Below, piece after piece: positions 9,023 through 25,810 of a stretch of DNA of 64,000 nt. Made by a program: the position numbers and the translations under genes. Position 1 is the first letter of the stretch; each line of letters opens with the position of its first letter. The notes below the pieces were generated by a model. The model had not been told where the DNA came from. It worked only from the letters and a program-made list of their open reading frames with translations, and ran no database searches. This stretch comes from a virus (Duplodnaviria > Heunggongvirae > Uroviricota > Caudoviricetes), in IMG/VR virus record IMGVR_UViG_3300018493_000089, positions 1-64,000 of that record. One strand, 5' to 3'.

Positions 9023-9042
9023 CTATTAAAAGAGGTAGTCTT

Positions 9043-9660: not shown

Positions 9661-9672
9661 GGAGTGCCTTGC

Positions 9673-9918: not shown

Positions 9919-9929
9919 GGATTGATTAA

Positions 9930-11207
9930 ATGAAAACAGTAATCAAAATATTTGAGCAATTAAAAAACACCTCTGGCAAAAAAGATAAAGAGGCAATTAT
10001 TGAAACCAATAAGGATAATGAATTATTCAAAGAATGTCTGGTATTTCTGTTAGACGATAATGTGACTACAGGTATCGCAAAAAAATCCTTGCAAAAGAAC
10101 ATCAAATGCGACGGCGACATTATGTTATTAGTATCTTGGCAAGATTGTATGTCTTATTTAAAAGAAAATAATACTGGTAAAGATTACGACATTTTAGTTG
10201 CACAAGGTTTTGTAAAATTCCAAGATGAAGCAGATAGATGGTTTTATGAAGGTATGATTACCAAAACACTTAAAATTGGTTGCGATAAAGCAATTGTCAA
10301 TAAAGTGATTCCACAATTAATTCCAGATTGGAAAGTTCAGCTAGGTTCTTCGTTTGAAAAATTGAGATTGAAAGATAACGAAAAATTCTTTTTAAGTAAA
10401 AAAATGAATGGACATAGAGGATCATTTTATGAAGGCAAATTTATTTCTCGCCAAGGTAAAGAAATATCTGGTTTACAACATATCATTGACGATATTGAAA
10501 AACTATATCTTAGTACATACTTTATCGACGGCGAATTGATAAGGAAAAATGTAGAGAATCTTGATGATAACGAGAATTTCAGAATCACATCGAGTATTTT
10601 AAATTCTGATACAGAAGATAAATCTGACATTGAGTTTGTAATTTTTGATATTTTTCCAGCAGATACAATTGTTGGCAATCATACTATCGAAAATTATAGT
10701 GAACGGAAAAAGCGGATGAAAGATTTAGAGTATCTTTTTCAACATAATAATATTCGTAACTTGAAAATTGTCGAAATGGTGTATGAAGGTACAGATCCTA
10801 ATCAAATTCATAAATGGCTAAAATATGCTGTAGATAATGACTGGGAAGGGATTATGCTAAACAAGGATGTTCCTTATGTGTTTAAACGCACAACGAATGT
10901 TATAAAAATCAAACAGTTTTTATCCATAGATTTAAGAATCATCGGGTATGAAGAAGGTCAAGGAAAAAACGAAGGAAAGCTTGGAGCTTTTGTTGTTGAT
11001 TATAAAGGCAATAAAGTTGAAATTGGCGGTGGATACTCAGATGAAGAGCGTGCAACCTTTTGGGAACACAGGGATGAGATGATTGGAAAAATCATAGAAA
11101 TTAAATATAAAGGTGAATCCCAAAATAAAAGGAGTGGGTTAAAGAGTCTTCAGTTTGCAGATTTTGTCTGCATCAGAAACGATAAAAATGACCCTAGTTA
11201 CAACTAA
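9930..11207 (+). CDS. ATP-dependent DNA ligase
   Basis: Nucleotidyltransferase motifs are KMNGHRG (KxDG), FIDGELI, FVIFDIF and WEGIMLNKD...KIK. No TAG. Confidence 0.75.
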   Translation: MKTVIKIFEQLKNTSGKKDKEAIIETNKDNELFKECLVFLLDDNVTTGIAKKSLQKNIKCDGDIMLLVSWQDCMSYLKENNTGKDYDILVAQGFVKFQDEADRWFYEGMITKTLKIGCDKAIVNKVIPQLIPDWKVQLGSSFEKLRLKDNEKFFLSKKMNGHRGSFYEGKFISRQGKEISGLQHIIDDIEKLYLSTYFIDGELIRKNVENLDDNENFRITSSILNSDTEDKSDIEFVIFDIFPADTIVGNHTIENYSERKKRMKDLEYLFQHNNIRNLKIVEMVYEGTDPNQIHKWLKYAVDNDWEGIMLNKDVPYVFKRTTNVIKIKQFLSIDLRIIGYEEGQGKNEGKLGAFVVDYKGNKVEIGGGYSDEERATFWEHRDEMIGKIIEIKYKGESQNKRSGLKSLQFADFVCIRNDKNDPSYN

Positions 11208-11221
11208 GAGGTGATAGTTAT

Positions 11222-11929
11222 ATGAGTCGAATATTTGTGACGGGCGATACACACGGAGATTTTTTCCATATATAGAATTTCTGTCTTGATAATAATACTA
11301 GCATAGACGACATTATGATTGTTTGTGGCGATGCTTGCATAAATTTTTATCTTGATAAAAGAGATGACAGACTTAAAGAAAGAATAGCTGGAATACCAAT
11401 AACATTTCTAATTGTGCATGGAAACCATGAAGAACGAGCTTGGAATGTTAAGGGTTATAAACTGAAAGAACATAAAATTGGAACAGATAATTATGTGTAT
11501 GGATATAGCGAAGAAAAATATCCAAATATAATTTTTGTTCAAGATTTTCATATTGAAACATTGAACGGAAAAAGATTTATGTTCCTTGGTGGTGCTTATT
11601 CTGTAGATAAATTCTATAGATTAGCAATGAACTGGTACTGGTTTGAATCTGAGCAAATGCCAGAAGAGGAAATGCTAGAGGTCTTAAAATTTGTCACAAG
11701 CGTAAGTAATTTCGATTATGTTGTGTCACATACATGTCCGTATAAATATATTCCAACAGAGGCGTTTTTGCCATCGATTAACCAGAATACAGTTGATCAG
11801 AGTACAGAATATTTCTTAGATGAAGTTGATGATTTAATTCAATACAAACAATGGTATTGTGGGCATTGGCATATCAAAAAAGAAATTCAAAAATTAAAAT
11901 TCTTATTTGACGATATTATTGAAATTTAA
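11222..11929 (+). CDS. calcineurin-like metallophosphoesterase (1 in-frame TAG)
   Basis: Motifs GDTHGD, IVCGDA and GNHE. Frame open across the TAG at 11273. Confidence 0.7.
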
Positions 11930-11938
11930 GGTGATTAC

Positions 11939-12304
11939 ATGGATAAGCAGGAAAGAATAACCCAGTTAAAACAAGAAATACGTGAAAAAGAAAAAGAATT
12001 ACATAAACTCGAAAAAGAGATTAATACAGAATTTTTACCTCAATTCGTAGGAAAGTATTTCAAAAGTAAAAATGATTTTTATTACTTAAAAGTATGTGAA
12101 TATGATGAAGAGTTAAATTTGCTAAAAGGTTGGGGAATAACGATAGATAAAGACTGGAATAAAAACAATTTATACACAGCAGAATATTTATCATTTATGC
12201 ATTACCATCTTTTTGACGACAAAACTGAAATCAGCGAAAAAGATTTCGGTGTTGTTTTAAATATATACATCAATTCAATTAAAACAAGTATAGAAAAGGG
12301 GTGA
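11939..12304 (+). CDS. hypothetical coiled-coil protein
   Basis: ORF of 121 aa. Confidence 0.5.
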   Translation: MDKQERITQLKQEIREKEKELHKLEKEINTEFLPQFVGKYFKSKNDFYYLKVCEYDEELNLLKGWGITIDKDWNKNNLYTAEYLSFMHYHLFDDKTEISEKDFGVVLNIYINSIKTSIEKG

Positions 12305-12308
12305 AAAT

Positions 12309-12506
12309 ATGGTTACGTTTTTAGGATTCATGGCTATCGCTAGTGGCATTGTTTTGAGGGCATAGCTCACAATCGATCATCATTGTTCTGACAGAGACAA
12401 ACTAGAACTTAAAGACATTGCAGGTTATATGGTAATCGCAGGTGTCGCTATCATCTTAATTAATACATGGATTGCAAAGCCAGTGATAATTTGGTTGGGA
12501 GGTTAA
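12309..12506 (+). CDS. small two-TM membrane protein (1 in-frame TAG)
   Basis: RBS GGGGTGA. Two hydrophobic helices. Confidence 0.35.
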
Positions 12507-12507
12507 T

Positions 12508-12672
12508 ATGAACCCGGTAGTTATTTTAATAGTTATATTAGTTGCTATTGTTATTTGGCTCTGTTTATCCAAAAAGTTTGTTTGGATTGGGGATAAATTA
12601 TATAACATGTTTAGCGACACAAGAGATATTTTGAGCGAAGAGTTTGATAAAGAAAAGGAGAACAAAAAATGA
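12508..12672 (+). CDS. small single-TM membrane protein
   Basis: RBS GGAGG precedes the ATG (TAAtATG). N-terminal TM VVILIVILVAIVIWL. Stop overlaps the next ATG. Confidence 0.35.
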   Translation: MNPVVILIVILVAIVIWLCLSKKFVWIGDKLYNMFSDTRDILSEEFDKEKENKK

Positions 12673-13580
12673 TGTATGATTACGAAGCGTATGAAAAAGA
12701 AAGAGAAGAAAAACGAAAAAAAGTCAAAAAAGGTCTGATTGGTGGCGGTGTTGTTGCATTTGTTTTACTGATCGGTATTGGTTGTGCCGCTGCATGTATC
12801 GAAAAAATTCCAAACGGCTATTGTGGTGTTCAGTACTCCATGAACGGTGGTATTAAAGATGAAGTTCTAACACAGGGTTGGCATTTCGTATCTCCTTTTG
12901 TGCATGTTAAAGAATTTACAGTTGCCAATGAACAGCTGGTAATGTCTAAGGATGCGAGAGATGGCAGTGAATCTGATGATAGCTTTAATGTGGCAACAGC
13001 AGACGACGCAAGCATTGCAATCAGCTTCAGAATGGAATATGCATTTATTCAGGATGAACTTCCTGATACATTCAAGAGATACCGTGGCATGAGTGGTGAA
13101 GATATTGTTAATAACCGTGTAAGAGGTATTCTGAAATCTAAAATTTCTGAAGTAACAACTAACTATACAATGATGGATATTTACTCCGGCAATCGTAGTG
13201 AAATCAACAGAAAAATTCTGAATCATCTGAACGAAGAATTTAAAGATACATATGGTATTACAGTAATCAATGCAGATATTATTGATGTACATCCAGATGC
13301 ACAGCTACAGCAGACAATTGATAATCGTGTAAAAGCACTGCAGCAGAAACAAGAGGCTCAGGCTAAACAAGAAACAGCAAAAGTAGAAGCCGAAACAGAA
13401 CTGATCAAAGCTAAGAATGCGGCTGATATTGAAATCACAAAAGCAAAGGCTGAAGCAGAAGCCAACAGAGTTATCTCTGAAAGTATTACACAGGGTCTGA
13501 TTGATATGAAAAATGCAGAAGCAAGAATGCAGCATGGCTGGGTAACAATTAAGGGCGCAAATACTGTTGTAACAAAATAA
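12669..13580 (+). CDS. SPFH / band-7 (prohibitin/HflK-like) membrane protein with C-terminal coiled coil
   Basis: N-terminal TM, band-7 core YCGVQYSMNGGIKDEVLTQGWHFVSPF, then an Ala/Lys/Glu-rich coiled coil. Confidence 0.7.
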   Translation: MMYDYEAYEKEREEKRKKVKKGLIGGGVVAFVLLIGIGCAAACIEKIPNGYCGVQYSMNGGIKDEVLTQGWHFVSPFVHVKEFTVANEQLVMSKDARDGSESDDSFNVATADDASIAISFRMEYAFIQDELPDTFKRYRGMSGEDIVNNRVRGILKSKISEVTTNYTMMDIYSGNRSEINRKILNHLNEEFKDTYGITVINADIIDVHPDAQLQQTIDNRVKALQQKQEAQAKQETAKVEAETELIKAKNAADIEITKAKAEAEANRVISESITQGLIDMKNAEARMQHGWVTIKGANTVVTK

Positions 13581-13592
13581 ATTGGAACGAAT

Positions 13593-13616
13593 GGGCGGGG
13601 TTCATTCTCCGCCCTA
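13593..13616 (+). terminator. GC hairpin GGGCGG-ggttcattct-CCGCCC immediately after SPFH gene
   Basis: 6-bp GC stem in an AT-rich context. The T-tract is imperfect. Confidence 0.35.
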
Positions 13617-13629
13617 TTGGAGAAGTAGT

Positions 13630-13911
13630 ATGAAAAAAGAAGATTTTGAATTTATCAAACTGGATGAAAAATATAAAGACTATTGGTTCAAGGTAAAAGA
13701 TAGATCTGTGTCTGAGGCAGTTTTAACTGAACGATATATGGAGCAATCTATGGTTTGTGTATCTGAGGTTGTTTATTCTGTTCACGATGATGTTTTAGGT
13801 GTAAAGCAGCTATTTCCATTTAGCTTTTATGTATTACCAGTGCAAGATGAAGAATTGAAAAAAATAATTTTTTCTTTAATTGATGATATTAAAAAGGAAG
13901 AAGTGAAATAA
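13630..13911 (+). CDS. hypothetical protein
   Basis: RBS GGAG precedes ATG 13630. About 93 aa. Confidence 0.45.
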   Translation: MKKEDFEFIKLDEKYKDYWFKVKDRSVSEAVLTERYMEQSMVCVSEVVYSVHDDVLGVKQLFPFSFYVLPVQDEELKKIIFSLIDDIKKEEVK

Positions 13912-14826
13912 ATGCAATTTTGTAGCAAAGAAGATATTAAAGATTATATTGAAACAAGAAAAGCAGATATCAAAAAATCCGTTCAAAAAAATACCAGCAT
14001 GGGATTTGATGTTCCCACACTGGCGATTATTCAAGTCGGTAGCAATCCTGCATCTAACAAATATGTAAATGGCAAAATTAAGGATTGCGAAGAAGTTGGA
14101 ATGAAAGCTGTATTACATAAATTTAATGAAGACATTGAACCTGTAGATTTTGGAACAGAGATTATTAAAATCATGCATGATGAAATGATTCATGGTGTAA
14201 TTATCCAGAAACCACTGCCCGAAAAATTAGAAAAATATTTTGATAAGTTTGTAAAAATGATTCCAAAGAAAAAGGATGTCGATGGATTTAGAAAAGATAC
14301 TGAGTTCGATCCTTGTACTCCTAAAGGAGTGGTGGATTATATTGAAAGCAGACAGGGTAAAGACTGGCTGACAGGTAAAGATGTTGTCATTATCAATCGT
14401 ACAGAATTGGTTGGTAGGCCACTTGCAAAAATGATGTTGGATAGAAATGCGACAGTTACTGTTTGTCATAGTAAAACAGAGCGTCTGCGGAATCATTGCC
14501 AGTATGCAGACATTGTTGTGAGTGCTATTGGCAAACCTAAAATTTTAATTAGAGACTATGTTAAGCATGACAGTGTATGTTTTGATGTAGGAATTAGTTT
14601 TGATGAAAACGGAAAAATGTGTGGCGATTTTGACAGAGATAACGTAATGAAAATAACAGATTATTGCACACCTGTTCCTGGCGGCGTCGGTTTACTGACA
14701 AGAATTGCTCTTGTAGAAAATGTATTAAAAGCATATGAAAATCAGAAGTATAGAGCAAGTATGATTCCTAATGCAGAAAAGGATGAAAACAATGTGGGGA
14801 ATTACAAGTCTTATGAGAGAAAATAA
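13912..14826 (+). CDS. folD: bifunctional methylene-THF dehydrogenase / methenyl-THF cyclohydrolase FolD
   Basis: Motifs [36 protein letters not shown] and [10 protein letters not shown]. Confidence 0.85.
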
Positions 14827-15514
14827 TCACACTGGAGCCAACGAAATTGATACATATATTTCAGAAGTAAATAGTCAGGATAACTTTATTGCTGAAGTTA
14901 ATTCTTTGCCGATGCCGGAAAGTTATCCTCACGAAAATGATAGATTTTACATTCCAGAAGAATATAAAAATATGACTAGCAAACAATTAAAAAATGCTAA
15001 AAAAGCATGGGAAAATTATTTTAAAGAAAGAGAAAAAATGAGGGAATCATTATTTGGAGAAGGAGCAACTACCATGAATAAAAAAGAAATTAAAATTAAA
15101 TATTTTACAGATGAAATCGAAAAGCTTCGCTATATTGATGGAAAATCTGATTGGATTGATCTTAGAGCAGCAGAAGATGTTTCAATTAGTGCTGGTGAAT
15201 TTAAACTAATCCCTCTTGGTGTGGCAATGCAATTACCAGAAGGTTACGAAGCACATATTGTTCCTCGTAGTTCTACATTTAAAAATTTTGGCGTGATTCA
15301 GACAAATCACATGGGCGTTGTTGATGAAACATATTGCGGCGATAATGATCAGTGGTTTATGCCTGTATATGCGGCGAGAGATACTGTAATTAAAACAAAC
15401 GACAGGGTTTGCCAGTTTAGAATTGTAGAACATCAGCCAGCGATTGATTTTATTGAAGTTGAAGAGCTGGGAAATGATGACAGAGGCGGTCATGGCAGTA
15501 CAGGCAAGCAGTAA
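14792..15514 (+). CDS. dut: dUTPase with ~95-aa N-terminal extension (canonical core also startable at ATG 15075)
   Basis: dUTPase motifs [16 protein letters not shown] and [10 protein letters not shown]. There is no stop between the 14792 ATG and the core. An internal RBS AAGGAG precedes the ATG at 15075. Confidence 0.65.
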
Positions 15515-15526
15515 GAGGTGATATTG

Positions 15527-15820
15527 TTGATTAAAAGAGCATATGCAAGACATCTTGCTGATAAATATAATTAGAATATAGAGAGTCTGATTATCGAAGC
15601 AGCAAACATGGGTAAATATGAAATTGAGTATATTGTACCAATTCCTTCTGATAAACCTTGGTGTAAGTATGACTATCAAGATAAGGCATATCAATTAGCA
15701 CACAATATTGAAAAAAATGGATATCAAGTTGAAGTGAGATGTGAAGAAATCGCCGCAACAAATACAATCGGTAAAAGTGTATACACATCCATATCATATA
15801 TTTTAAAAATTAAATGGTGA
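15527..15820 (+). CDS. hypothetical protein (TTG start, 1 in-frame TAG)
   Basis: SD AAGAGG sits 8 nt before TTG. The frame is open through the TAG at 15572. Confidence 0.35.
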
Positions 15821-16215: not shown

Positions 16216-16245
16216 AACCTTGATATATCAACGATATAAGAAGTT
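16190..16245. other. candidate attP core (contains perfect palindrome TTGATATATCAA)
   Basis: Placed between the miaB fragment and the integrase 3' end. Palindrome at about 16219-16230. Confidence 0.25.
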
Positions 16246-17883
16246 CTGTGTTAAGCCATTCTTAAATTTAATTGCCAAAACTGTGCTGTTATCACCCACA
16301 GAAACATAATCAATAACATTATTGAAGAAATCTTGTAGTTGTTTTTCATCAACATTCACGGCTAATTCTTGATAGGAAATTTCTTTTCCTCTGCCGAGTT
16401 CCCAGTCGATGATACATCTATCAAGTAATTTATTGTCAACCAGTGGAAGCATTGCATCTTTATTCTGATTTGCTGCATGTATCTGCTGGTTGATTTCATT
16501 TAATTCAGCAGTTAATTTTGTTCTTTTTTCGAGATAATCTCTTTCAGGCATACTGTCATCAGAAAACAGATATAAATCATCCAACCTTTTTAAAGCTCTC
16601 TCGATTTTTTCTTGACGCTGTTTAAATACTTCTGTGTCAGAATATTCAGTATTATGACTGACTGTGATAAGTTTATTCGGCTTGTAACCACATTTTAAAA
16701 CTTCTTTTATATCCTCGATACTCTGTTGACTGATATATGCAACATCTTTGAAGGCTTTACCAGATAGTAATCTTTCTTCTAAGTTAGTAAAGTCTTTACT
16801 GTTTTGAATGGTAATCATATTACTCATATAATTTAAAATGAAATTACCAAGATATGTATCCGTGATAGCGCCTTTACTCATACAGGTATTACCGTGCATT
16901 CTGTTAGAGCATCTATAAGAAGAAGGGTGGTATCCATTTTTTCTTTTAGTATCTTTGTGTGCAGATGTGCCTCCGCCACATAATCCACATTTTAATAAAC
17001 CGCTAAAAGAATGTGTATGACCGCCCACAATTCTTCGTCTGCATGGTTCAGCTCTTTTTTGAAGAATTGCATTCACTTTATCAAACTGTTCTTGTGAAAT
17101 AATTGCTTCATGATTATTTGGTACAATGACCCATTCTTCTTCTGGTCTAATCTTACCTCTACCACTTTCTTGGTAGTTGTATCTTAGTGTACCAATGTAG
17201 AAGGGGTTTCTTAGCGTCTGTGTGATGGATTTAGCATACCAGTTACCATTTCTCTTGGTTGGAATCTTTCGTTCATTTAAGAGCCTTGCAATGCGTAATA
17301 CGGATGGTTCTCTTTCGTATTCATCAAAAATCATTTGTACAATCTTCTTTTCATCTTCATCAACAACTGGATACATGCTTTCTGGATCAAATTTGTATCC
17401 TAATGGAGCCGCTGTGCCATTCCATTTACCTTCTTTGGCTCGTGAAATCATTGTTGCTCTTACTCTGACTGCAGTCATTTCTCGTTCCAACTGAGCAAAT
17501 GTCATGATGATATTCAACATTGCTCGACCCATAGGTGTGTCTGTCTGAAAATTATCAGTCTTACTTACAAACTGAATATCTAAATCTTCAAACTCATCCC
17601 ACATTTTTGCGAAGTCACCAATGTTTCTAGAAATTCTATCTAGTTTCCAAACTACAACATGAGAAAATTCTTTATTTCTCAACCTTTGCATCATACTCTG
17701 AAAAGCGGGACGATCTGTATTCTTAGCAGAATACCCAGCATCTTCAAAAATTTCATAATCTTTGACACCAAGAACAATCTCACAATAATTGATTAAATCT
17801 TTTTTCTGCATTGGAAGTGAATCTTTATCTGCTTGATAAATTGTACTTACTCGTACATAGATTGCTGCTTTACTGTTTTTAAT
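16228..17883 (-). CDS. large serine recombinase (phage integrase), no canonical start codon; probable ATT initiation
   Basis: N-terminus AAIYVRVSTIYQ with the catalytic Ser. Resolvase core, recombinase domain, zinc ribbon CGLCGGGTSAHK...YRC and a coiled coil. The reading frame opens after a TGA. It contains SD AAAGGAGG followed by ATT ATT ATT and has no ATG/GTG/TTG before the catalytic Ser. No TAG. Confidence 0.8.
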   Translation of the reverse strand: MKNSKAAIYVRVSTIYQADKDSLPMQKKDLINYCEIVLGVKDYEIFEDAGYSAKNTDRPAFQSMMQRLRNKEFSHVVVWKLDRISRNIGDFAKMWDEFEDLDIQFVSKTDNFQTDTPMGRAMLNIIMTFAQLEREMTAVRVRATMISRAKEGKWNGTAAPLGYKFDPESMYPVVDEDEKKIVQMIFDEYEREPSVLRIARLLNERKIPTKRNGNWYAKSITQTLRNPFYIGTLRYNYQESGRGKIRPEEEWVIVPNNHEAIISQEQFDKVNAILQKRAEPCRRRIVGGHTHSFSGLLKCGLCGGGTSAHKDTKRKNGYHPSSYRCSNRMHGNTCMSKGAITDTYLGNFILNYMSNMITIQNSKDFTNLEERLLSGKAFKDVAYISQQSIEDIKEVLKCGYKPNKLITVSHNTEYSDTEVFKQRQEKIERALKRLDDLYLFSDDSMPERDYLEKRTKLTAELNEINQQIHAANQNKDAMLPLVDNKLLDRCIIDWELGRGKEISYQELAVNVDEKQLQDFFNNVIDYVSVGDNSTVLAIKFKNGLTQNFLYR

Positions 17884-18116
17884 AATAATACCTCCTTTTA
17901 ATCGTCAGCAAACAACATACCTTTTGCATTAATAAAAGCACTCCTTATACTTTCATTGTAACAAGATGGTGTTTTGCTGTATAGTACAAAATTTTTTGAT
18001 AATAACATATTTTTTGCATAAAAAGTTTCTATAATGTAAATAAATATCCATATATTACCGCTTGTAAATTTAAGGAAGCCATACTACACTTATATTAAGA
18101 GAAAGGGGAGAGAATA

Positions 18117-18341
18117 ATGGCTAGAAGACCTAAAGAATACAAAACGACTGAACAAAAAATTATGGATGTAGTAAATGAAATTCAGATAACTGAAGAACAT
18201 TTAACTGAATTAAAAAATCAGAAAAAATTATTAGAAAGAGATTTAGAACAAGAAAAAATTGATGTACTATTAATGTCAATTAAAAATAAAAATATTTCTA
18301 TTGACAAAGCAAAAGAAATTATTGATAATATGCAAGAGTAA
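18117..18341 (+). CDS. hypothetical coiled-coil protein
   Basis: RBS AAAGGGGAG; 74 aa. Confidence 0.45.
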   Translation: MARRPKEYKTTEQKIMDVVNEIQITEEHLTELKNQKKLLERDLEQEKIDVLLMSIKNKNISIDKAKEIIDNMQE

Positions 18342-18377
18342 CATCCACAGTTATTCCATCTTTCTAAATCCAAGAAT

Positions 18378-18403
18378 TGCCCGCTATTTGCGGGCTTTTC
18401 TAT
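18378..18403 (+). terminator. rho-independent terminator (GCCCGC-tattt-GCGGGC TTTTC); a convergent minus-strand hairpin follows at ~18410-18450
   Basis: GC stem followed by a T-tract. Confidence 0.6.
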
Positions 18404-18453
18404 TTGTAAAAAAATAGGGAGGCATAGATAATGCACTCCCTAAATTCTTTATA

Positions 18454-19176
18454 TTATTTCTTTTTATCTAAAATAGGTGTACCACCTTTATTAGAAATAT
18501 TGTAACCGAATATTGCACCAATGTCTCTGGTTTTAATATATGTATAACCATCTTTATTAATCATTTCGACAGTATACTCTTCGCCATCAACAATAATATT
18601 TTCTCTTACAATCACTTCATCGTCCTCCTTATATTTTTCAGGAATTTCAATTTCCCAGTAATATTTTTGCTGTTTTATGAAGCGATCCCAAGGCATTTTA
18701 GAACAAATTTCTTTTTTATTATAAGGATCGTTAATAAGAACATTGTCACCATCCATTGCATAACAAAGAATATAATGTCCAGAAGATGTAAAATCGCCTT
18801 TTCCAGCAACTGCAATAATCCAATTGCCATTCTCTAACGATTTTCTAACTTCTTTGTGAACAGATGCGTTTGGTTTATTATAACAGTTAGCACTGTTCAT
18901 CATTCTACATTTTATTCCATACTCAGCCATCTGTGGTTTGAAATAAGCGTAGTATGTACCTTGTTTTAATGCTTTATATCCATGTGATTTAGACCATTCA
19001 GCAGTATCGATAGGTGTTACTGTTTTGCCGGTTATTGAAGAAATAACCATAGCAGAACAAGTAATCCCACATCCTTCTGCTTTAATGGTTGTCTGTTCTC
19101 CTTTGGTAGAGTAATCATGGTTTGCCCATTTTGGATCTGTCTGATAATACATCACAGGTCTGCCTAATTTATTCAT
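18454..19176 (-). CDS. endolysin, peptidase C39-like/CHAP-type cysteine amidase with C-terminal wall-binding domain
   Basis: RBS GGAGGTGA and motif YYQTDPKWANHDYS...GCGITCSAMV. No TAG. Confidence 0.65.
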   Translation of the reverse strand: MNKLGRPVMYYQTDPKWANHDYSTKGEQTTIKAEGCGITCSAMVISSITGKTVTPIDTAEWSKSHGYKALKQGTYYAYFKPQMAEYGIKCRMMNSANCYNKPNASVHKEVRKSLENGNWIIAVAGKGDFTSSGHYILCYAMDGDNVLINDPYNKKEICSKMPWDRFIKQQKYYWEIEIPEKYKEDDEVIVRENIIVDGEEYTVEMINKDGYTYIKTRDIGAIFGYNISNKGGTPILDKKK

Positions 19177-19191
19177 TGGTTTCACCTCCAA

Positions 19192-19226
19192 ACAATAAAA
19201 AAAGAACAGGGGGGTTAACCCTGTTC
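19192..19226 (-). terminator. terminator after holin (GAACAGGG-gggttaa-CCCTGTTC + T-run on minus strand)
   Basis: 8-bp stem followed by a T-tract on the minus strand. Confidence 0.5.
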
Positions 19227-19540
19227 AATAATGTCTGTTTTTAACTCGGCATCTGTATTAGAAATATCAATACGAAGTTCTGTGACAGCACGTTTAATAT
19301 AAGCTTTAACTTCTTTTTCATCAAAAGTGATTTTATATTTATTCAGAAATTCCACCATTGCATCCCAAACCTACTGTGCTTTATCTTCTATTTCGCCAGT
19401 GATATGTAACTCATTCGCTGCAGAAACCAGTGTTTTTGCAACTTTTAAAATTACTGTTCCTTTCAGCATAGGAATCCAATATTTCTTACTAAAGAATACA
19501 ATACAAATAATTAATAATTCAAAAATCCATGTAATATCCA
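19214..19540 (-). CDS. holin (LL-H-like: N-terminal TM then VAKTLVSAANE...IEQG) with 1 in-frame TAG
   Basis: RBS AAGGAGG sits 8 nt before ATG 19540. TAG at 19370-19372. Confidence 0.5.
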
Positions 19541-19559
19541 TTTTCGATGCCTCCTTATA

Positions 19560-19901
19560 TTAGAAATTAGGGTAATCATTACTTACTTCTGCCATCTCTT
19601 CGTAAATAAAATCGTCACCATATTTCTTTTTCATTTCATTGATATTCTTCAGTCTTTCCATTTCAATATCCACTCTATCTTTCTGTTTACATCTAAAAGC
19701 ATAGCACATTAATGCAATTGCACCTAAAATACAAACATATTTAATGAGATCAGGAAGGGCAGAGTAGTCTCCAGATTCTGTCATTGCTCTCGTACACCAA
19801 TGAATAAACCAAGCGACACCAATCATTACTCCGCCAACTAAAACTTTAGAATACTCTTTTTTTCTTTTTGGTTTAACTGCAGTAGTTTTTTTGGTAGCCA
19901 T
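19560..19901 (-). CDS. two-TM membrane protein (second holin/antiholin candidate)
   Basis: SD GAGGTGGTGA. TM helices VLVGGVMIGVAWFI and ILGAIALMCYAF. Confidence 0.4.
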   Translation of the reverse strand: MATKKTTAVKPKRKKEYSKVLVGGVMIGVAWFIHWCTRAMTESGDYSALPDLIKYVCILGAIALMCYAFRCKQKDRVDIEMERLKNINEMKKKYGDDFIYEEMAEVSNDYPNF

Positions 19902-19912
19902 GTTTCACCACC

Positions 19913-20491
19913 TCATTCTTCAAATTCATCAACTACAGACCATGTATAAATTTCTGGCTGAACAATGTTTTGAACAAAACTATTGCCATTGACCGCAAAC
20001 TATTCTTCAACCAATCCTTCCAAAGCATCCAGCTCCATAGCTGTAATCTTTTTAGTTTTATGATGCAAACGATATGCTCTCATTATTTTATCTTTTAATT
20101 CTGCACGAATTCTTTTTTGATTGCGTTCTTCACTTTCTGCAAAACGCTGGTCTGTTTTTCTTTGATTTTCTTGCATCATCCTAGACAATTCTGTAAGCTG
20201 TGTGGCTAATTGAGTATTAGCATCAATAAGTTGTTTTTGAATTTCAAATGATTGCTCACGGTCATGTTTACGATTATCTTCATATGCACAAATTCTGTCA
20301 TGATCCGATAACAACATATTCAGTAACTCATCTTTCCGTTTTCTCGTCTGATACCAAGAATCCCAAAGACCTTTGATATCTTTTCTGTTTGATAAAAACC
20401 ACCCAATCACAACTCCTAAAATAATCAAACTAACAAGAAGAGTAGAAGAGGGGATTCTATCTATATAATCAATTAATTCGGTAAGTGTCAT
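19913..20491 (-). CDS. N-terminally anchored coiled-coil membrane protein (lysis-associated); terminal TAG at 20000 read through to TGA 19913
   Basis: TM LLVSLIILGVVIGWFL. If TAG is sense, a 29-aa extension ends in the next gene's RBS. Confidence 0.35.
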
Positions 20492-20556: not shown

Positions 20557-21378
20557 TTATTGTTTTCTAAGCTTATCTCGAATCTTTTTTTCAGAATCAT
20601 ATATGTTAATATAATGTGTGCCAAGAATTTTAGGGATACGATTTATTTGAGAAATCAGTTCTTCTAATTCAGCGATATCCAGACTACATTTATGATCTGT
20701 ACCTTCCATAGTTTTGTCTAATGTAATATGTCTTTCAATAATATCTGCACCTTTAATAACAGAAATCAGAGTAGGCAGCGTATCAATTTCATGACCGCTA
20801 TATCCAATTGCTAAAGTGGGGTACATGTTTTTTAATCTTGTAATAACATTTAAATCCAACTCATCGTCAGCACATGGGTAAGTACTATTACAATGTAAAA
20901 TACCAAGTAAATTATCTAAGTTATATATTGCATTTAAAACTTCTGGTTCAGTGCTCATCCCATCAGAAATAATAACAGGAATACCCCAATCATTAATGGC
21001 ATGGATTAATTCCATGTCTGTAATACATGCACTTGGAATCTTGATAAAAGGTATATCATAACTATATTGCTTCATAAATTCAACACTATTTACATCCCAT
21101 ACACTAACAGTCCACTTAATACCAATTTTTTGACAAAACTGATTAATAATATCGTATTCTGTTTTACCAAATTCAATTGACTTTTTATATTCAAGATAAG
21201 TCATTTCTTCACCTTTCCAGATGCGTTTAACATTTTTTTGATGTTCAGGAACACAAAAGTCTGGATCACGCTTCTGAAACTTTACAACATCAACACCACA
21301 TCGTTTTGCTTCTTGAATTAACTGTAGTGCTGTGTATAATTCTCCGTTATGATTAATTCCAATTTCTCCAATAAACAT
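20557..21378 (-). CDS. NeuB-family nonulosonic acid (sialic/pseudaminic/legionaminic acid) synthase
   Basis: MFIGEIGINHNGELYTALQLIQEAKRCGVDVVKFQ is the canonical NeuB N-terminus. No TAG. Confidence 0.8.
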   Translation of the reverse strand: MFIGEIGINHNGELYTALQLIQEAKRCGVDVVKFQKRDPDFCVPEHQKNVKRIWKGEEMTYLEYKKSIEFGKTEYDIINQFCQKIGIKWTVSVWDVNSVEFMKQYSYDIPFIKIPSACITDMELIHAINDWGIPVIISDGMSTEPEVLNAIYNLDNLLGILHCNSTYPCADDELDLNVITRLKNMYPTLAIGYSGHEIDTLPTLISVIKGADIIERHITLDKTMEGTDHKCSLDIAELEELISQINRIPKILGTHYINIYDSEKKIRDKLRKQ

Positions 21379-21380
21379 AT

Positions 21381-22028
21381 TTAAAACTCCTCTTTAATCC
21401 TTACAATATCGTCTAGTTCAATTGTAGAACTTTCAATAATGACTAAATCTGTAATGGCTTTTACTTGATGAATTGTGCCAGCCGGAATTCTGATAGTGTC
21501 ACCAATATTTATACGAAACTCTTTTCCGTCTACTTTGGCAATCCCAACACCTTCAACAACATGCCATGTCTCATGTTTTTTAACATGATATTGTAGAGAT
21601 ATATTTAATCCTGCATCAATATGCAATCTTTTCATTGCATAGTTTTTAGTGATGTCCAGTAAATACTCTTTACCCCAACGCTTGTTGATTACAGTTAAAC
21701 TTTCGGCATCATCTTTAGATATCAAATAATTTGCATTACAACCCTTATCATCTATGTAAACATCTGCAGCGGGTTTGCCAAATCTCAGTTCATGCTATTT
21801 TACACCCCAATCAGATAATTGTTGCGTTGTAAGATCGAACCAATCAATTCCAGTTTCTGTGCCACGAGCAGTATAATAAACCACTTTATTTCCGTTATCA
21901 TACAAAGTGTTTGCCATTTGTATCATATCCATATATGGTTTTGCGTCCGCATAATTTTCTTCTTGACTACAGATAGTTCCATCAATATCAAAAATGTACT
22001 TTAGAGGTTTCGTATTTGAATTTTGCAT
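21381..22028 (-). CDS. HAD-family phosphatase fused to a cupin domain (join crosses in-frame TAG at 21795)
   Basis: HAD motif I FDIDGT...TARG and motif KPAADVYIDDKG lie on opposite sides of the TAG. A cupin region WGKEYLL...HVKKHETWHVVEG follows. Confidence 0.45.
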
Positions 22029-22656
22029 ATTCGTAATCCTCCTTTGTATCAATATCGATGGTTTGTTCTTCGGGAATTTCAATCAGTGCCAAATCGTCTT
22101 TCAGCATATATCCATCTAATTTAAATAATTCTTTATTAAAAATATGGAAGCAATGTGCGGCTTGATATAATGGATCAATTTCTTTTGTGGTTAATTTTTG
22201 ATAATCAATATCCGTTTTAACATTGATATCTTTATCCCAAAGCCAGTTTTGAAATCTTTTAACGCTTGTGCCATATTCTTTTTTGCTCGCTAAGAATTGG
22301 CCGATTGATGAAATAATAGTTTGTGGTGTTAGAAAAATGAGGCATGGATTTAGAAACATTAAGTATTTTTCTGGTACGCCAAGAATGTCTTTAAAAATAA
22401 ATCGTAATGGAGTTTCTGCTTCTGCTGTAGCAGGGTGACGAATAATAATTTGTACATTTGGATATTTTTTAGCAATATCAATTAACTCTTTGTCACAAAC
22501 CAAGACATATGTATTTAGACCATAATAACTTTTAATATAATCCAGTTTCTTACAACAGATTTCAAACATACAAGTATCACCAATTGGTAAAGTCTGTTTG
22601 TTTGGTAATCTCTGACTACTCAATCTTGCTGGCACAAAAATTCCTACATGTTTCAA
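21988..22656 (-). CDS. CMP-nonulosonic acid cytidylyltransferase (NeuA/PseF-like)
   Basis: N-terminal motif GIFVPARLSSQRLPNKQTLPIGD. Confidence 0.65.
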   Translation of the reverse strand: MKHVGIFVPARLSSQRLPNKQTLPIGDTCMFEICCKKLDYIKSYYGLNTYVLVCDKELIDIAKKYPNVQIIIRHPATAEAETPLRFIFKDILGVPEKYLMFLNPCLIFLTPQTIISSIGQFLASKKEYGTSVKRFQNWLWDKDINVKTDIDYQKLTTKEIDPLYQAAHCFHIFNKELFKLDGYMLKDDLALIEIPEEQTIDIDTKEDYEYAKFKYETSKVHF

Positions 22657-23471
22657 TATAAAATACCTCCTTTTTCTCGTGTGTATCTCCCGCCACTATT
22701 ATTGCAATAAAAACACGGCATATCAGATGTAAACTCTGCAGAAGTTACACTTTTTACAAAATCTAAATATTTTTTAGATGATAGCATTTCGGATAATTTG
22801 CTTTCTTTTAAATCACCTAAAATATATTTTTTTTGATTTTCACAATCGTTTCTCACATTACAGCATGGGCTAACTGTCCCATCATAATTAATTCCAATAA
22901 AATAAATAGGCTCATAACACGGAGCCTCTCTTTTTATCTTAGAATATTCTGTTAAATTACCTCCACGATCAGAAATATTTGCTGTTTCTAACCATGAGTA
23001 ATAATAGAGAATTGTTTTCTCATTGTATCTACCTACAAAATAATGGTCATATTCAATGATATCTGAAACATTCCATTTTTGTAATTGTTGCAAAACAAAA
23101 TCTCTGCCTTTATAATCGTAATCCATAATAGTTAATTCATCGACTAACATTGTTTGAAGAATTTGCTCATTAATATAATCGCCATTCGTGTTTGACACAA
23201 TTGTTGTATCAGGAAAATAATGTTTTATTAATTGCATTGCATCACGCAATTCTTCGTGATTTGAAAATGGCTCATTATAACGTGAAAATGAAAATTTTCC
23301 TTCATATCCATTAACTTTTAATTCTTGGAGGAGAGTGGTAAACACATTATAATTAAGCCATTCAATTTTACTTTTGCGGTCTATATAACTATTTGGACAC
23401 CAGTTGCATTTGCGATTGCAATAAGAAAATAATTCTATTTCCACCAATCTAAGTTTTGAAATAATATCCAT
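22653..23471 (-). CDS. radical SAM protein with C-terminal SPASM/twitch Cys cluster
   Basis: CNRKCNWC (Cx3Cx2C), later CYEPIY...SPCCNVRNDCENQ...CFYCNN. Confidence 0.65.
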   Translation of the reverse strand: MDIISKLRLVEIELFSYCNRKCNWCPNSYIDRKSKIEWLNYNVFTTLLQELKVNGYEGKFSFSRYNEPFSNHEELRDAMQLIKHYFPDTTIVSNTNGDYINEQILQTMLVDELTIMDYDYKGRDFVLQQLQKWNVSDIIEYDHYFVGRYNEKTILYYYSWLETANISDRGGNLTEYSKIKREAPCYEPIYFIGINYDGTVSPCCNVRNDCENQKKYILGDLKESKLSEMLSSKKYLDFVKSVTSAEFTSDMPCFYCNNSGGRYTREKGGILY

Positions 23472-23472: not shown

Positions 23473-24168
23473 TTATTCAAATCCTTTTATCCATTGATTA
23501 AATGCTGTTTCATCGTTAATATATTTACTAGGTGTAACATCTTGATAATTATAAAAATTTTCAGATAATTGACGTTGATAATTCATGGTTGCATTTATCA
23601 ATTCACCTACATACTAAGTTGTATATTGTATAGTATATTTATCTACTAACAAACACCCTATATTTTTAGGCGGGATATAATTCACTACAGAATCAAGATA
23701 TAAATAGCGATATGATAATGGCGAAGATAATTTTAAAGATTGATAATAATCCATAAGATTCTATACACAGTCATTAGATATGATACATAAAACTTTATAG
23801 TCAGGAGATAATTCGCCATCATCCATTAAAAACCTTAAAGCAGCAACACGATGTCTACCTTCATACACATAAAAACATCCTTTATTTTCTATAGGGTAAA
23901 CACAAAGAGGGAAGTACATTCCTTTAGATAGTATCTCTTCACCAAAAGCTTTTTGCTTTTCTTTATATTTTTTTATAAACGGATTATCAATATTTTGGCT
24001 CCATATATCTTTGTCATTGTCAAGAGGGTCTGGAAATAAATATTGGATACTTATAAACTTGAAATCTAATATATTGCTGCGTATAAGGGGGCGTAAGGCA
24101 TAATATATATAATCCGAATGATATATTTTAGAAAATTGCTCTACAGAACAATTAATTCTAGTCAACAA
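23473..24168 (-). CDS. ParB/Srx-like nuclease-domain protein; C-terminal extension through 2 in-frame TAG
   Basis: Motif VYEGRHRVAALRFL. A 96-codon stop-free extension follows the TAG at 23761 and ends at TAA 23473, next to the following gene's start. Confidence 0.35.
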
Positions 24169-24182
24169 AATATCATCTCCTA

Positions 24183-24338
24183 TTATACTATTTTATTACC
24201 ATTAGAGTCATACCCTAACGCCGTTAAAAGATGTAGTACATCTAATAAAAACTCATCAGGCACTAATTTCACTTCAGTATTATTTTTATCACAAGTTCTC
24301 AGTCCTGCTTTTACTAATCTAAAATATAATTCTGCCAT
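24183..24338 (-). CDS. small hypothetical protein (MAELYFRLVKAGLRT...)
   Basis: RBS GGAGGTAA. TAATG overlap with the upstream gene. Confidence 0.3.
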   Translation of the reverse strand: MAELYFRLVKAGLRTCDKNNTEVKLVPDEFLLDVLHLLTALGYDSNGNKIV

Positions 24339-24670
24339 TATTCATTACCTCCAGACTTATTTATAAATGCTTCATAAATAGTAGCTTGAGCTTCCATAAT
24401 AATTAAATTGTCTGCTTTTTGAGACTCATATTGTTCTGCTATAGCCTCCATGATAACTAAAATGTTTGAGGGTTCTTGAAGTAAAGATTCAATACTAGAT
24501 AATTTATCTAATACAGTATTATCTTCGCTCTTTAATCCAATATCTATAAATTCACCTTCTACATATTTTTTATGAAGAACATCAAGTCCTGTTTCTACTA
24601 CATTCTCGTGGAATCCAGGATCACTAGCTATAAGAACACAGATATCATTTTCATCTAATATAGCATACAT
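24338..24670 (-). CDS. hypothetical protein
   Basis: ORF of 110 aa. Confidence 0.45.
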   Translation of the reverse strand: MYAILDENDICVLIASDPGFHENVVETGLDVLHKKYVEGEFIDIGLKSEDNTVLDKLSSIESLLQEPSNILVIMEAIAEQYESQKADNLIIMEAQATIYEAFINKSGGNE

Positions 24671-24717
24671 AATTCATGATACCTCCTTTAATAATATATA
24701 CGATAAGAACTATTACT

Positions 24718-25587: not shown

Positions 25588-25602
25588 TTTTCATTCCTCC
25601 TT

Positions 25603-25640
25603 TTTAAAATAAAAGAGGGTAGTTAACCCTCATGAAATTT
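25603..25640 (-). terminator. terminator (GAGGGT-taac-tACCCTC + T-run) upstream of fibre gene
   Basis: Hairpin plus a T-tract on the minus strand. Confidence 0.5.
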
Positions 25641-25657
25641 TATTGTGTTTAGTTAAA

Positions 25658-25810
25658 TCACTCAGCGTAATCTTCGCCAGTGATTTCTTTGTATTCTTTT
25701 TTTGTCAGAGAATTCTTTTCGCCATTTTCAACTCTGATTACAAACTCATCTTTTGTTTTTACTCCTGCTTCATACAGGCGTTTCATACTCTCAATGATTT
25801 TAGTATTCAT
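25658..25810 (-). CDS. XkdX-family small phage protein
   Basis: MNTKIIESMKRLYEAGVKTKDEFV...KEYKEITGEDYAE matches the XkdX signature. TAATG overlap with the upstream gene. Confidence 0.55.
   Translation of the reverse strand: MNTKIIESMKRLYEAGVKTKDEFVIRVENGEKNSLTKKEYKEITGEDYAE

What the first reader, a model, noticed from the sequence alone, without database searches (positions are those of the whole stretch)
16228..19540. TAG-free lysogeny and selected enzymes versus TAG-containing holin and virion genes
The integrase, endolysin, DNA ligase, FolD, the dUTPase core, NrdG and NeuB contain no TAG, while the holin (TAG at 19370), NrdD, ThyX and essentially every structural gene do. The integrase can therefore be expressed without a suppressor, whereas lysis timing and virion production depend on it. 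This fits the idea that recoding partitions lysogenic from lytic expression. It also implies the host uses standard code.
Basis: partly seen in the sequence, partly recalled or inferred. Interest (0 to 1): 0.6.

Follow-up and report, generated by a model that had tools for sequence, protein, structure and literature searches.

The report
Phage that reads TAG as tyrosine

Summary
The gene-level facts are mostly right. Integrase, endolysin, ligase, FolD, dUTPase, NrdG and NeuB have no in-frame TAG. The holin (TAG at 19373..19371), NrdD and ThyX do. "Essentially every structural gene" is wrong: 18 of 36 virion genes lack TAG, including the portal, the tail tube and a 1839-aa protein. Only about 5% of Tyr codons are TAG, so a TAG-free integrase (P0 0.25-0.35) or endolysin is unremarkable, and module differences inside the window are not significant (p=0.18).

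New points:
- TAG here encodes tyrosine. Close relatives carry TAT/TAC at the window's TAG sites, and a class-II tRNA(CUA) lies about 8 kb beyond the window.
- Over 110 kb of the ~129 kb genome there is a sharp partition, but it is early versus the rest. The early arm has 53 genes, 570 Tyr codons and 0 TAG, against 67/1207 elsewhere (p=5e-12).
- The YonO-like late-gene RNA polymerase carries 7 TAGs.
- 42% of TAGs lie in the first 40 codons (p=1e-9).

It is partly supported in spirit, but not by the integrase/holin contrast.

The parts
1..2930 (+). Distal end of the TAG-free early arm: C-terminal part of Pol III alpha (g01, to 1663), g02 (1663-2364), g03 (2376-2930).
   Evidence: No in-frame TAG. 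Continuous with the TAG-free SSAP/DnaB/DnaG/PD-(D/E)XK/Pol III genes upstream in L001 and L109.
2927..15820 (+). Nucleotide-metabolism and other plus-strand genes (g04-g25): 18 TAGs in 22 genes, the highest TAG use in the window. Includes ThyX 4393-5121 (TAG codons 5 and 58), NrdD 6220-8469 (TAG at 6262, 6481, 7138), 3D-domain g07, kinases g05 and g09, metallophosphatase g17. NrdG, ligase, FolD and dUTPase are TAG-free.
   Evidence: (Pfam domains span the TAGs).
16228..17880 (-). Large serine recombinase (integrase), 550 codons, 24 Tyr codons, no TAG. Starts at a non-canonical AUU (17880..17878), 7 nt after AAAGGAGG.
   Evidence: Resolvase, Recombinase and Zn_ribbon_recom domains; the domain begins upstream of the first ATG; phrog_95, E=2.5e-126; a homolog has ATG at the same position; P0 0.25-0.35.
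18117..18341 (+). Small 74-aa ORF divergent from the integrase (possible regulator or RDF; no family match), no TAG. Followed by a GC hairpin terminator at 18379-18395.
18454..19176 (-). Putative endolysin (Peptidase_C39_2 domain plus a C-terminal domain), 240 codons, 19 Tyr codons, no TAG.
   Evidence: PF13529, E=1.6e-11. The function is inferred from the domain and the position next to the holin. P0 0.34-0.43.
19215..19541 (-). Holin (phrog_6918), 108 codons, one TAG at 19373..19371 (codon 57). A terminator-like hairpin at 19226-19204 overlaps its stop codon.
   Evidence: (E=1.2e-13; the match covers residues 1-102 and spans the TAG).
19560..20491 (-). Two more lysis-cassette membrane proteins: g32 (19560-19901, 2 TM, no TAG) and g33 (19913-20491, TM plus coiled coil, TAG at 20002..20000).
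   Evidence: No family hits. Their role is inferred from position and membrane topology.
20557..23471 (-). Sugar (nonulosonic-acid-like) cluster: NeuB, HAD+cupin (one TAG at 21797), cytidylyltransferase, radical SAM/SPASM.
23473..63998 (-). Virion and packaging module. Includes TerL 59611-61626 (2 TAG), portal 58099-59592 (0), major capsid YonB-like 54664-55740 (1), tail tube 49975-50766 (0), tape measure 43515-47699 (TAG at 45293..45291, needed to join the two halves), g53 36929-42448 (1839 aa, 0 TAG), baseplate/fibre g49-g46. 18 genes have TAG and 18 do not.
   Evidence: (Yon/Yom Pfam names).
42396..42881 (+). Moron-like plus-strand insert within the virion module (161-aa Zn-ribbon-like protein, followed by a ~50-aa membrane peptide), no TAG.

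Best explanation
The window is half of a ~129 kb circularly permuted, SPβ-like temperate siphovirus from gut or rumen-type metagenomes. Its host is probably a member of the Clostridia. In this phage TAG is a sense codon for tyrosine. It makes up about 5% of Tyr codons outside the early arm, and TAA and TGA are the terminators. Decoding is most likely done by a phage-encoded class-II tRNA with a CUA anticodon that resembles the phage's own tRNA-Tyr. This tRNA lies in a tRNA array about 8 kb beyond the right end of the window (window-equivalent ~72.03-72.11 kb, minus strand). TAG is absent from a long early arm and is present, patchily, everywhere else. The early arm comprises 53 genes over at least 31 kb of coding sequence, including SSAP, DnaB, primase, Pol III alpha, PTH2 and RtcB. 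TAG use is densest at the head of the late arm, where the YonO-type single-subunit RNA polymerase carries 7 TAGs. In SPβ, YonO transcribes the structural and lysis operon. TAG use is next densest in the homing endonucleases and the nucleotide-metabolism genes, and it is thin in virion genes. TAG codons sit preferentially in the first ~40 codons. The inferred mechanism is as follows. Under the host's standard code, only the early arm, the integrase, the moron and other TAG-free genes can be made in full length. Once the suppressor tRNA accumulates, YonO and the other TAG-bearing proteins can be completed, which licenses late transcription, virion assembly and lysis. Within this scheme the TAG-free state of the integrase, endolysin, ligase, FolD, dUTPase, NrdG and NeuB is what chance gives for genes of their size. 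The holin's single TAG is one of many gates, not the key one. Shown here: TAG is read through, TAG equals Tyr by comparative evidence, the early/rest partition, the 5' bias, and the TAG load of YonO. Inferred: which tRNA decodes TAG, the timing, and whether the arrangement is adaptive.
For: Read-through: Pfam and PHROG matches run across TAGs in NrdD, ThyX, the 3D domain, kinases, the metallophosphatase, the holin, the tape measure and TerL. No in-frame TAA or TGA is needed anywhere. The sequence is identical in independent JGI, ENA and Logan assemblies. Tyr: at 22 informative window TAG sites, relatives have Tyr as the majority residue at 13. The mean per-site fraction is 0.57 against a background of 0.054, and log2-odds are +31 for Tyr and -31 for Gln. 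NrdD codon 307 is Tyr in 78 of 80 relatives. The closest lineage (L090/L101, 71-73% identity) has TAT at the window's TAG sites, and the window has Tyr at 10+2 of that lineage's TAGs. In YonO, 7 of 7 reciprocal sites are Tyr. Internal repeats in g49 and g47, and the GIY-YIG and PD-(D/E)XK motifs, place TAG at Tyr or aromatic positions. tRNA: L090 has a tRNA(CUA) called by ARAGORN. The window's phage has a homolog at L092:590-673, identical in 3 assemblies. All 20 stem pairs are intact, with 5 compensatory double changes relative to L090. It has the same CUCUAAA loop, a long variable arm, G1-C72 and A73, and it is closest to the phage's tRNA-Tyr(GUA). Partition: 0/570 against 67/1207, Fisher p=5.5e-12; scan permutation P=0.006 on the smaller data set. 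YonO: tblastn to SPβ yonO, Goe12 'DNA-directed RNA polymerase' and PMBT24; 7 TAGs; its role in late transcription is from PMC5467207. 5' bias: 28 of 67 TAGs against 129 of 1140 Tyr codons fall in the first 40 codons, p=1.2e-9. It remains with only alignment-supported sites (p=5e-4) and replicates in the L090 lineage (p=3e-4).
Against: The window phage's CUA tRNA has a non-canonical T-loop (GGCAGUA). ARAGORN does not recognise it, and neither does the Rfam tRNA model even at E<=10, so it may be inactive. About 19 kb of the genome (window-equivalent ~92.5-111.6 kb) was not seen and could hold another suppressor, an aaRS or a release factor. Tyr is inferred only from alignments; no peptide evidence exists. 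Distant homologs do not have Tyr at several sites: PDB NrdDs have Ile, Glu or Asn, and PMBT24 has Tyr at only 3 of 11 sites. 'Early' and 'late' are assigned by gene content, strand and analogy with SPβ, not by expression data. Some N-terminal TAGs (7 of 20 in the window) rest on my start-codon choices alone. YonO's excess of TAG (P=0.006-0.02) and the choice of module boundaries are post hoc.
Confidence: 0.75

Rival explanations
1. model. Recoding specifically separates the lysogenic programme from the lytic programme. The integrase is translatable under the host code. The holin and virion genes depend on the suppressor. The TAG-free state of the integrase and the TAG in the holin are the selected features.
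For: The integrase, the adjacent small ORF and the moron have no TAG. The holin, g33, TerL, the capsid and the tape measure have TAG. The integrase is a separate transcription unit behind a terminator. There is a published precedent in which integrase families significantly avoid recoded stops.
Against: P(0 TAG) is 0.25-0.35 for the integrase and 0.14 for all three lysogeny/moron genes together. The endolysin, portal, tail tube, g53 and 14 other virion genes are equally TAG-free. The TAG density of the lysis cassette equals the genome average. Replication-associated nucleotide-metabolism genes are the most TAG-rich. TAG presence per gene is not conserved between lineages. No relatives with this integrase/holin region could be found to test conservation.
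Confidence: 0.25
2. Constraint only, with no regulatory function. After a tRNA-Tyr copy acquired a CUA anticodon, TAT/TAC to TAG changes became nearly neutral in genes translated once the suppressor is abundant. They were purged from genes that must be translated before that point. The 5' bias reflects cost minimisation: an inefficiently suppressed codon wastes less when it lies early. It does not reflect selected gating.
For: TAG is rare (5% of Tyr codons) and patchy, and it changes between lineages. It is absent from the early arm. Half of the late genes have none.
Against: TAGs are spread over more genes than random placement predicts (34 observed against 29.0 ± 2.5 expected, P=0.035). They are enriched in small genes (p=1e-4). 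They are concentrated in the master late polymerase YonO. These facts are suggestive but do not exclude this rival.
Confidence: 0.3
3. Ordinary 'code 15': TAG encodes glutamine, as in crAss-like, Lak and phAss-1 phages.
For: This is the only amber reassignment reported for phages. Many NrdD-bearing relatives fetched here do have their TAGs aligned with the window's Gln. The Logan gene calls for this very contig treat TAG as sense.
Against: Gln is never the majority residue at any of the 22 informative sites, and its log2-odds is -31. All reciprocal sites with the closest lineage are Tyr. The CUA tRNA is class II with a long variable arm, unlike tRNA-Gln.
Confidence: 0.03
4. No recoding. The TAGs are nonsense mutations in a decaying prophage, or sequencing or assembly errors.
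For: Standard-code gene callers split the genes.
Against: Only TAG interrupts genes, never TAA or TGA, and there are no frameshifts. The TAGs lie in essential genes (TerL, capsid, tape measure, NrdD, YonO). The sequence is identical in more than 20 contigs from independent samples. Some TAG sites are shared with a 71-73% identical lineage. A CUA tRNA is present.
Confidence: 0.01

Closest known systems
TAG-recoded ('code 15') phages: crAss-like, Lak, Garnet/Amethyst, and especially the SPβ-related Phassvirus group (phAss-1, PMC10607447)
   Same: A-T-rich gut phages with in-frame TAG in essential genes, a phage tRNA(CUA), TAA/TGA as terminators, and hosts presumed to use the standard code. phAss-1 is also ~136 kb, clusters near Spbetavirus, and has TAG in its holin, dUTPase and virion genes.
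   Different: Those phages read TAG as Gln, shown by tRNAscan, alignments and metaproteomics (PMC9523058). Here every comparative test gives Tyr, and the suppressor is a class-II, tRNA-Tyr-like molecule. TAG density is also much lower here (~2 per kb at most).
Borges et al. model of recoding as a lysis-timing and lysogeny switch (bioRxiv 10.1101/2021.08.26.457843)
   Same: A standard-code set of genes is expressed first. The suppressor then enables the late genes. The integrase has no recoded stops.
   Different: In this genome the significant partition is a large early arm against the rest. Lysis genes are not preferentially recoded. The heaviest load is on the phage's own late RNA polymerase. 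That paper states that only TAG->Gln and TGA->Trp were observed.
Bacillus phage SPβ and its relatives (YonO late RNA polymerase, PMC5467207; large serine integrase SprA)
   Same: ~130 kb temperate siphovirus with two divergent arms, a YonO homolog upstream of the late operon, Yon/Yom virion proteins and a large serine recombinase.
   Different: SPβ uses the standard code. This phage has a tRNA array, a Ro60/Y-RNA module, TAG=Tyr recoding and a probable Clostridia host.
Classical amber suppressor supF (E. coli tRNA-Tyr with a CUA anticodon). This comparison is from my own knowledge and was not tested here.
   Same: A tRNA-Tyr derivative whose G34->C change lets it insert Tyr at UAG. U35 and A73 are retained.
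   Different: supF is a laboratory or host mutation with partial suppression. Here the suppressor is a natural phage gene that the phage's essential genes depend on, and in the window's phage its T-loop is non-canonical.

Membership tests
Stop-codon-recoded (amber-reassigned) phage | In-frame TAG inside conserved domains of essential genes, with reading frames continuing to TAA or TGA | tested here: met
Stop-codon-recoded (amber-reassigned) phage | Phage-encoded suppressor tRNA with a CUA anticodon | tested here: inconclusive
   A homolog of L090's ARAGORN-called tRNA(CUA) is present in the same genome, outside the window (L092:590-673). All stems are intact and there are 5 compensatory changes. 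Its T-loop is aberrant, and neither ARAGORN nor Rfam recognises it.
Genetic code 15 (TAG = Gln) | TAG positions align with Gln in homologs that use the standard code | tested here: not met
   Tyr is the majority residue at 13 of 22 sites and Gln at none. Log2-odds are +31 for Tyr and -31 for Gln. YonO reciprocal sites are Tyr in 7 of 7 cases.
Borges-type lysogeny/lysis code partition | The integrase avoids recoded stops more than chance predicts | tested here: inconclusive
   0 TAG in 24 Tyr codons, P0=0.25-0.35. No orthologs from TAG=Tyr relatives were available.
Borges-type lysogeny/lysis code partition | Lysis genes are preferentially recoded | tested here: not met
   2 TAGs in 36 Tyr codons across 4 genes (5.6%), equal to the non-early average of 5.55%. 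The endolysin and g32 have none.
Borges-type lysogeny/lysis code partition | A set of early genes is kept in the standard code | tested here: met
   53 genes, 570 Tyr codons, 0 TAG; p=5.5e-12. 'Early' is inferred from gene content and arrangement.
SPβ-like phages | YonO-type single-subunit RNA polymerase, Yon/Yom virion proteins, a large serine integrase and a ~130 kb genome | tested here: met
   yonO hits; YonB, YonG, YonJ, YomU, YomV, YomW Pfam names; integrase; 129,194 bp. Identity to SPβ proteins is low (~25%), so this is a distant relative, not a member of the genus Spbetavirus.
Bacterial-type tRNA-Tyr (as the origin and identity of the suppressor) | Class-II long variable arm, G1-C72, A73, U35 | tested here: met
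   Read directly from the sequence and tabulated. It is closest to the phage's tRNA-Tyr(GUA) among the class-II tRNAs, but the margin is modest.
Bacterial-type tRNA-Tyr (as the origin and identity of the suppressor) | Aminoacylation by TyrRS | not testable with these tools
   Needs biochemistry or tRNA sequencing with charging assays.

The most novel reading that the evidence does not exclude
This phage lineage, together with the L090/OLVR01000428 lineage, represents a previously undescribed viral genetic code in which UAG means tyrosine. It is implemented by a tRNA-Tyr-derived CUA suppressor. It arose among SPβ-like gut phages whose relatives independently use UAG=Gln. TAG codons are placed near the 5' ends of genes and are concentrated in the phage's own late RNA polymerase, so a single tRNA gates the whole late programme.
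Probability: 0.55. Interest if true: 0.8.

Novelty: new variant of a known kind. Interest (0 to 1): 0.68.

Why it matters
All current phage tools and surveys (prodigal-gv, Pharokka-gv, Mgcod, table 15) assume that a recoded TAG means Gln. For this lineage they would insert the wrong residue at every site, often at conserved Tyr positions. Borges et al. argued from the Gln/Trp-only pattern that GlnRS and TrpRS are uniquely easy to hijack. A natural TAG=Tyr phage would broaden that view, and it shows two different amber meanings among related phages. The combination seen here gives a concrete, testable circuit for how recoding could time the lytic programme in a temperate phage. That combination is a TAG-free early arm, seven TAGs in the late RNA polymerase, and a 5'-end bias. 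A natural Tyr amber suppressor with an unusual elbow may also interest people working on genetic-code expansion.

Tried and rejected
(1) megablast of 24 kb against annotated phage records found no match.
(2) ARAGORN and Rfam on the window found no tRNA or other RNA family, even at E<=1.
(3) Looking for the suppressor immediately upstream of tRNA-Ser, as in L090, found coding sequence instead.
(4) An exact-pattern search for the window's phage in IMG/VR found nothing. The tRNA pattern in IMG/VR and in the metagenome collection found only the L090 lineage plus one chance hit, and did not return the window's own contigs.
(5) Host search: the portal has no relative in 185k species genomes, and the integrase has only 40-45% homologs in Clostridia.
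(6) Viral relatives of the integrase/lysis region turned out to be two short fragments, so conservation of the integrase/holin pattern could not be tested.
(7) MFE folding of the tRNAs was uninformative, as expected for tRNAs.
(8) Solved NrdD structures and the cultured relative PMBT24 are too distant to be informative at most TAG sites.
(9) I considered that the N-terminal TAG enrichment is a start-codon artefact. I rejected this because 13 of 20 early sites are covered by alignments or domains, the test stays significant without the rest, and the bias replicates in L090.
(10) I considered g49 (1279 aa) to be three separate genes ending in TAG. The second TAG lies at the Tyr of a four-fold internal repeat, so at least that one is sense. 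The first (codon 319) remains ambiguous.
(11) No release factor, TyrRS or other code-change gene was seen in the 110 kb examined. This relies on precomputed Pfam hits only for the flanks.


Full report
WHAT THE WINDOW IS. The window has two coding arms. Plus-strand genes run from 1 to about 15.8 kb and minus-strand genes from about 16.2 to 64 kb. Many frames stay open only if TAG is read through. I built a gene model with TAG as sense and annotated it with Pfam and PHROGs.
- The plus arm holds the C-terminal part of Pol III alpha, ThyX, NrdD/NrdG, kinases, an ATP ligase, FolD and dUTPase.
- The minus arm holds, in transcription order: a beta-CASP RNase, YonG, TerL, the portal, the capsid (YonB), the tail (YomU/V/W), the tape measure, a plus-strand moron, a 1839-aa protein, baseplate and fibres, a NeuB-type sugar cluster, a lysis cassette (g33, g32, holin, endolysin), a terminator, and then a separately transcribed large serine integrase.

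Contigs 100% identical to the window occur in many JGI, ENA and Logan assemblies, up to 129.3 kb long. Contig arithmetic gives a circular map of about 129,194 bp. The precomputed Pfam names (Yon/Yom) and a YonO homolog make this a distant SPβ-like temperate siphovirus. Integrase homologs (40-45% identity) occur in Clostridia. The cultured relative Enterocloster phage PMBT24 has the same layout under the standard code.

CHECK OF THE OBSERVATION. The holin (phrog_6918, 19215..19541) has one TAG at 19373..19371. NrdD has three and ThyX two, all inside domain matches. 'Essentially every structural gene' is wrong: 18 of 36 virion genes have no TAG, among them the portal, the tail tube, a collagen-like fibre, g51, g65 and the 1839-aa g53.

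TAG behaves as a Tyr codon (see below), so I used TAG/(TAT+TAC+TAG) as the null model.
- In the window 46 of 1069 Tyr codons are TAG (4.3%), and 39 of 73 genes are TAG-free.
- P(0 TAG) is 0.35 for the integrase, 0.43 for the endolysin, and 0.50-0.67 for the ligase, FolD, dUTPase, NrdG and NeuB.
- Module heterogeneity inside the window is not significant (chi-square p=0.18). Lysogeny/moron genes against the rest gives p=0.40.
- The densest module is nucleotide metabolism, not the virion.

TAG MEANS TYROSINE. I fetched 80 NrdD-bearing viral loci (75-86% identity) and two portal relatives. I then aligned the window's proteins to them with TAG masked.
- Relatives carry TAT/TAC at the window's TAG sites. 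NrdD codon 307 is Tyr in 78 of 80 relatives, and codon 88 in 47 of 79. Almost every structural-gene site is TAT in the closest lineage (L090).
- Over 22 informative sites Tyr is the majority residue at 13. The mean fraction is 0.57 against a background of 0.054. Log2-odds are +31 for Tyr, and every other residue is negative (Gln -31).
- Reciprocally, L090's own TAGs align with the window's Tyr (10), with the window's TAG (4) or with Met (1).
- In YonO all 7 reciprocal sites are Tyr.
- Internal repeats agree: g49's four 'STG.QYI(D/N)T' repeats have TAG at the Y in one copy, and a g47 repeat has TAG opposite Phe.
- So do the GIY-YIG motifs 'GKK[TAG]IGKT' and 'RPL[TAG]' (against RPLY in the paralog), and the PD-(D/E)XK motif.
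- Many other NrdD-bearing relatives have TAGs aligned with the window's Gln, which is the classical code 15. Two amber meanings therefore coexist among related phages.

On the literature: Borges et al. state that only TAG->Gln and TGA->Trp were seen, and never mention tyrosine. The SPβ-related phAss-1 group uses Gln. Annotation tools assume table 15. Mgcod models only TAA->Tyr. No paper in the searchable library reports TAG->Tyr in a phage. The library is incomplete, so priority cannot be guaranteed.

THE SUPPRESSOR. The window has no tRNA. Just beyond its right end lies an array of 13 tRNAs, including tRNA-Tyr(GUA) but no called CUA. L090 has a tRNA(CUA) that ARAGORN calls: 85 nt, a long variable arm, G1-C72, A73 and a CUCUAAA loop. 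Rfam places it in the tRNA clan, below threshold.

The window's own phage has a homolog at L092:590-673 (window-equivalent ~72.03-72.11 kb, minus strand), directly after tRNA-Gln. It is identical in three assemblies. All 20 stem pairs are intact, and five differ from L090 by compensatory double changes. The anticodon loop is identical. The T-loop is GGCAGUA instead of TTCGATT, and the D-loop has lost one GG, which explains why detectors miss it. Among the phage's class-II tRNAs it is closest to tRNA-Tyr(GUA). Its function is inferred, not shown.

THE REAL PARTITION. I extended the map to 110 kb (window -17.6 to +92.5 kb). A 2.2 kb non-coding region at ~77-79 kb separates two divergent arms.
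- The plus arm, from ~79.2 kb onward and again from -17.6 kb to +2.93 kb, contains 53 confidently called genes. These include SSAP, DnaB, DnaG, PD-(D/E)XK, Pol III alpha, an AAA/STAND protein, PTH2, RtcB and NadR/PnuC. They hold 570 Tyr codons and no in-frame TAG.
- Elsewhere 67 of 1207 Tyr codons are TAG (Fisher p=5.5e-12). An earlier scan test on a smaller set gave P=0.006.
- TAG starts abruptly at g04 (window 2927), within the same strand.
- Outside the early arm, TAG use differs between modules (chi-square p=0.005). It is 12.5% at the head of the late arm, 9% in the tRNA region (two GIY-YIG endonucleases with 3 TAGs each), 8% in nucleotide metabolism, 5.6% in lysis, 3.9% in the virion, 1.6% in the sugar genes and 0% in lysogeny/moron genes (34 codons, P0=0.14).
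- The head of the late arm is an 849-aa YonO homolog with seven TAGs. In SPβ, YonO transcribes the structural and lysis genes as one operon (PMC5467207).

Two further regularities emerged. TAGs are spread over more genes than random placement predicts and are enriched in small genes. Also, 42% of TAGs lie in the first 40 codons against 11% of other Tyr codons (p=1.2e-9). That bias is robust to dropping unsupported N-termini and replicates in the L090 lineage.

MECHANISM (inferred). Under the host code the early arm, the integrase and other TAG-free genes can be translated. TAG-bearing mRNAs yield short N-terminal fragments until the tRNA(CUA) accumulates. Full-length YonO then appears and drives late transcription, and the late mRNAs themselves need the suppressor. 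The holin's TAG is one gate among many. The integrase is additionally throttled by an AUU start codon. Whether this arrangement is a selected timing or lysogeny device, or only the footprint of purifying selection on genes translated before the suppressor is available, cannot be decided from sequence.

VERDICT. What is really there is more interesting than the finding as written. It is an SPβ-like phage with an apparent UAG=Tyr code, a divergent tRNA-Tyr-like suppressor, a strictly standard-code early arm, a heavily TAG-loaded late RNA polymerase, and 5'-biased TAG placement. I rate it a new variant of a known kind.

Noticed in passing
window 17878-17893 (minus strand): The serine integrase has no ATG/GTG/TTG before its catalytic N-terminus. 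It must start at AUU (17880..17878), 7 nt after AAAGGAGG. The Clostridium ihumii homolog has ATG at exactly that position. A weak start codon would keep integrase translation low.
   Followed up: partly
window 42396-43150 (plus strand): A moron-like insert on the opposite strand, inside the virion operon, between the tape measure and g53. It encodes a 161-aa Zn-ribbon-like protein and a ~50-aa membrane peptide, with no family matches and no TAG. One JGI contig (Ga0187907_10000728) ends inside this insert (window ~42.86 kb).
   Followed up: partly
window 19204-19226 and 18379-18395: A terminator-like hairpin overlaps the holin stop codon just upstream of the endolysin. A GC-rich hairpin between the endolysin and the small plus-strand ORF separates the late operon from the integrase unit.
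   Followed up: no
L007:615-2850 (window-equivalent ~68.0-70.2 kb): A Ro60/TROVE gene is followed by several Y-RNA-like modules. Two have sub-threshold YrlA matches, and there are repeated 'CTGATGCAGT…GTTACTTC' stems with tRNA-like halves. They are embedded in the phage tRNA array.
   Followed up: partly
L109:4435-8713 (window-equivalent about -13.2 to -8.9 kb); L007:4771-4905: The TAG-free early arm encodes a PTH2 peptidyl-tRNA hydrolase, an RtcB RNA ligase, and NadR-like and PnuC-like proteins. A 44-aa ORF in the tRNA region has a weak ArfA (ribosome rescue) hit. These could relate to handling ribosomes or tRNAs at unsuppressed TAGs. This is speculative.
   Followed up: no
L092:700-2230 (window-equivalent ~70.4-72.0 kb): Two paralogous GIY-YIG homing-endonuclease genes lie between tRNA genes. 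Each has 3 TAGs, some at the motif tyrosines. This is among the highest TAG densities in the genome, echoing the recoded intron endonuclease noted by Borges et al.
   Followed up: partly
window 20557-23471 (minus strand): NeuB, a HAD+cupin protein, a cytidylyltransferase and a radical-SAM/SPASM protein form a sialic/nonulosonic-acid-like biosynthesis cluster between the virion genes and the lysis cassette.
   Followed up: no
window 30723-34562 (minus strand, g49): A 1279-aa frame made of a baseplate-like N-terminal part plus four internal repeats ('STG.QYI(D/N)T…YYYN.G.G.F'). It could be one protein or up to three, depending on how the two TAGs are read. The first TAG (33608) is ambiguous.
   Followed up: partly
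L010-L089 (IMG/VR NrdD loci): Among related NrdD-bearing large phages, at least 20 loci have in-frame TAGs aligned with Gln, while the window's lineage and L090 have TAG aligned with Tyr. Amber has been reassigned to different amino acids in related phages.
   Followed up: partly
L104:3388-5598 (window-equivalent ~77.0-79.2 kb): A 2.2 kb region without convincing ORFs lies between the two divergent arms. It is probably the main regulatory or origin region and was not analysed.
   Followed up: no
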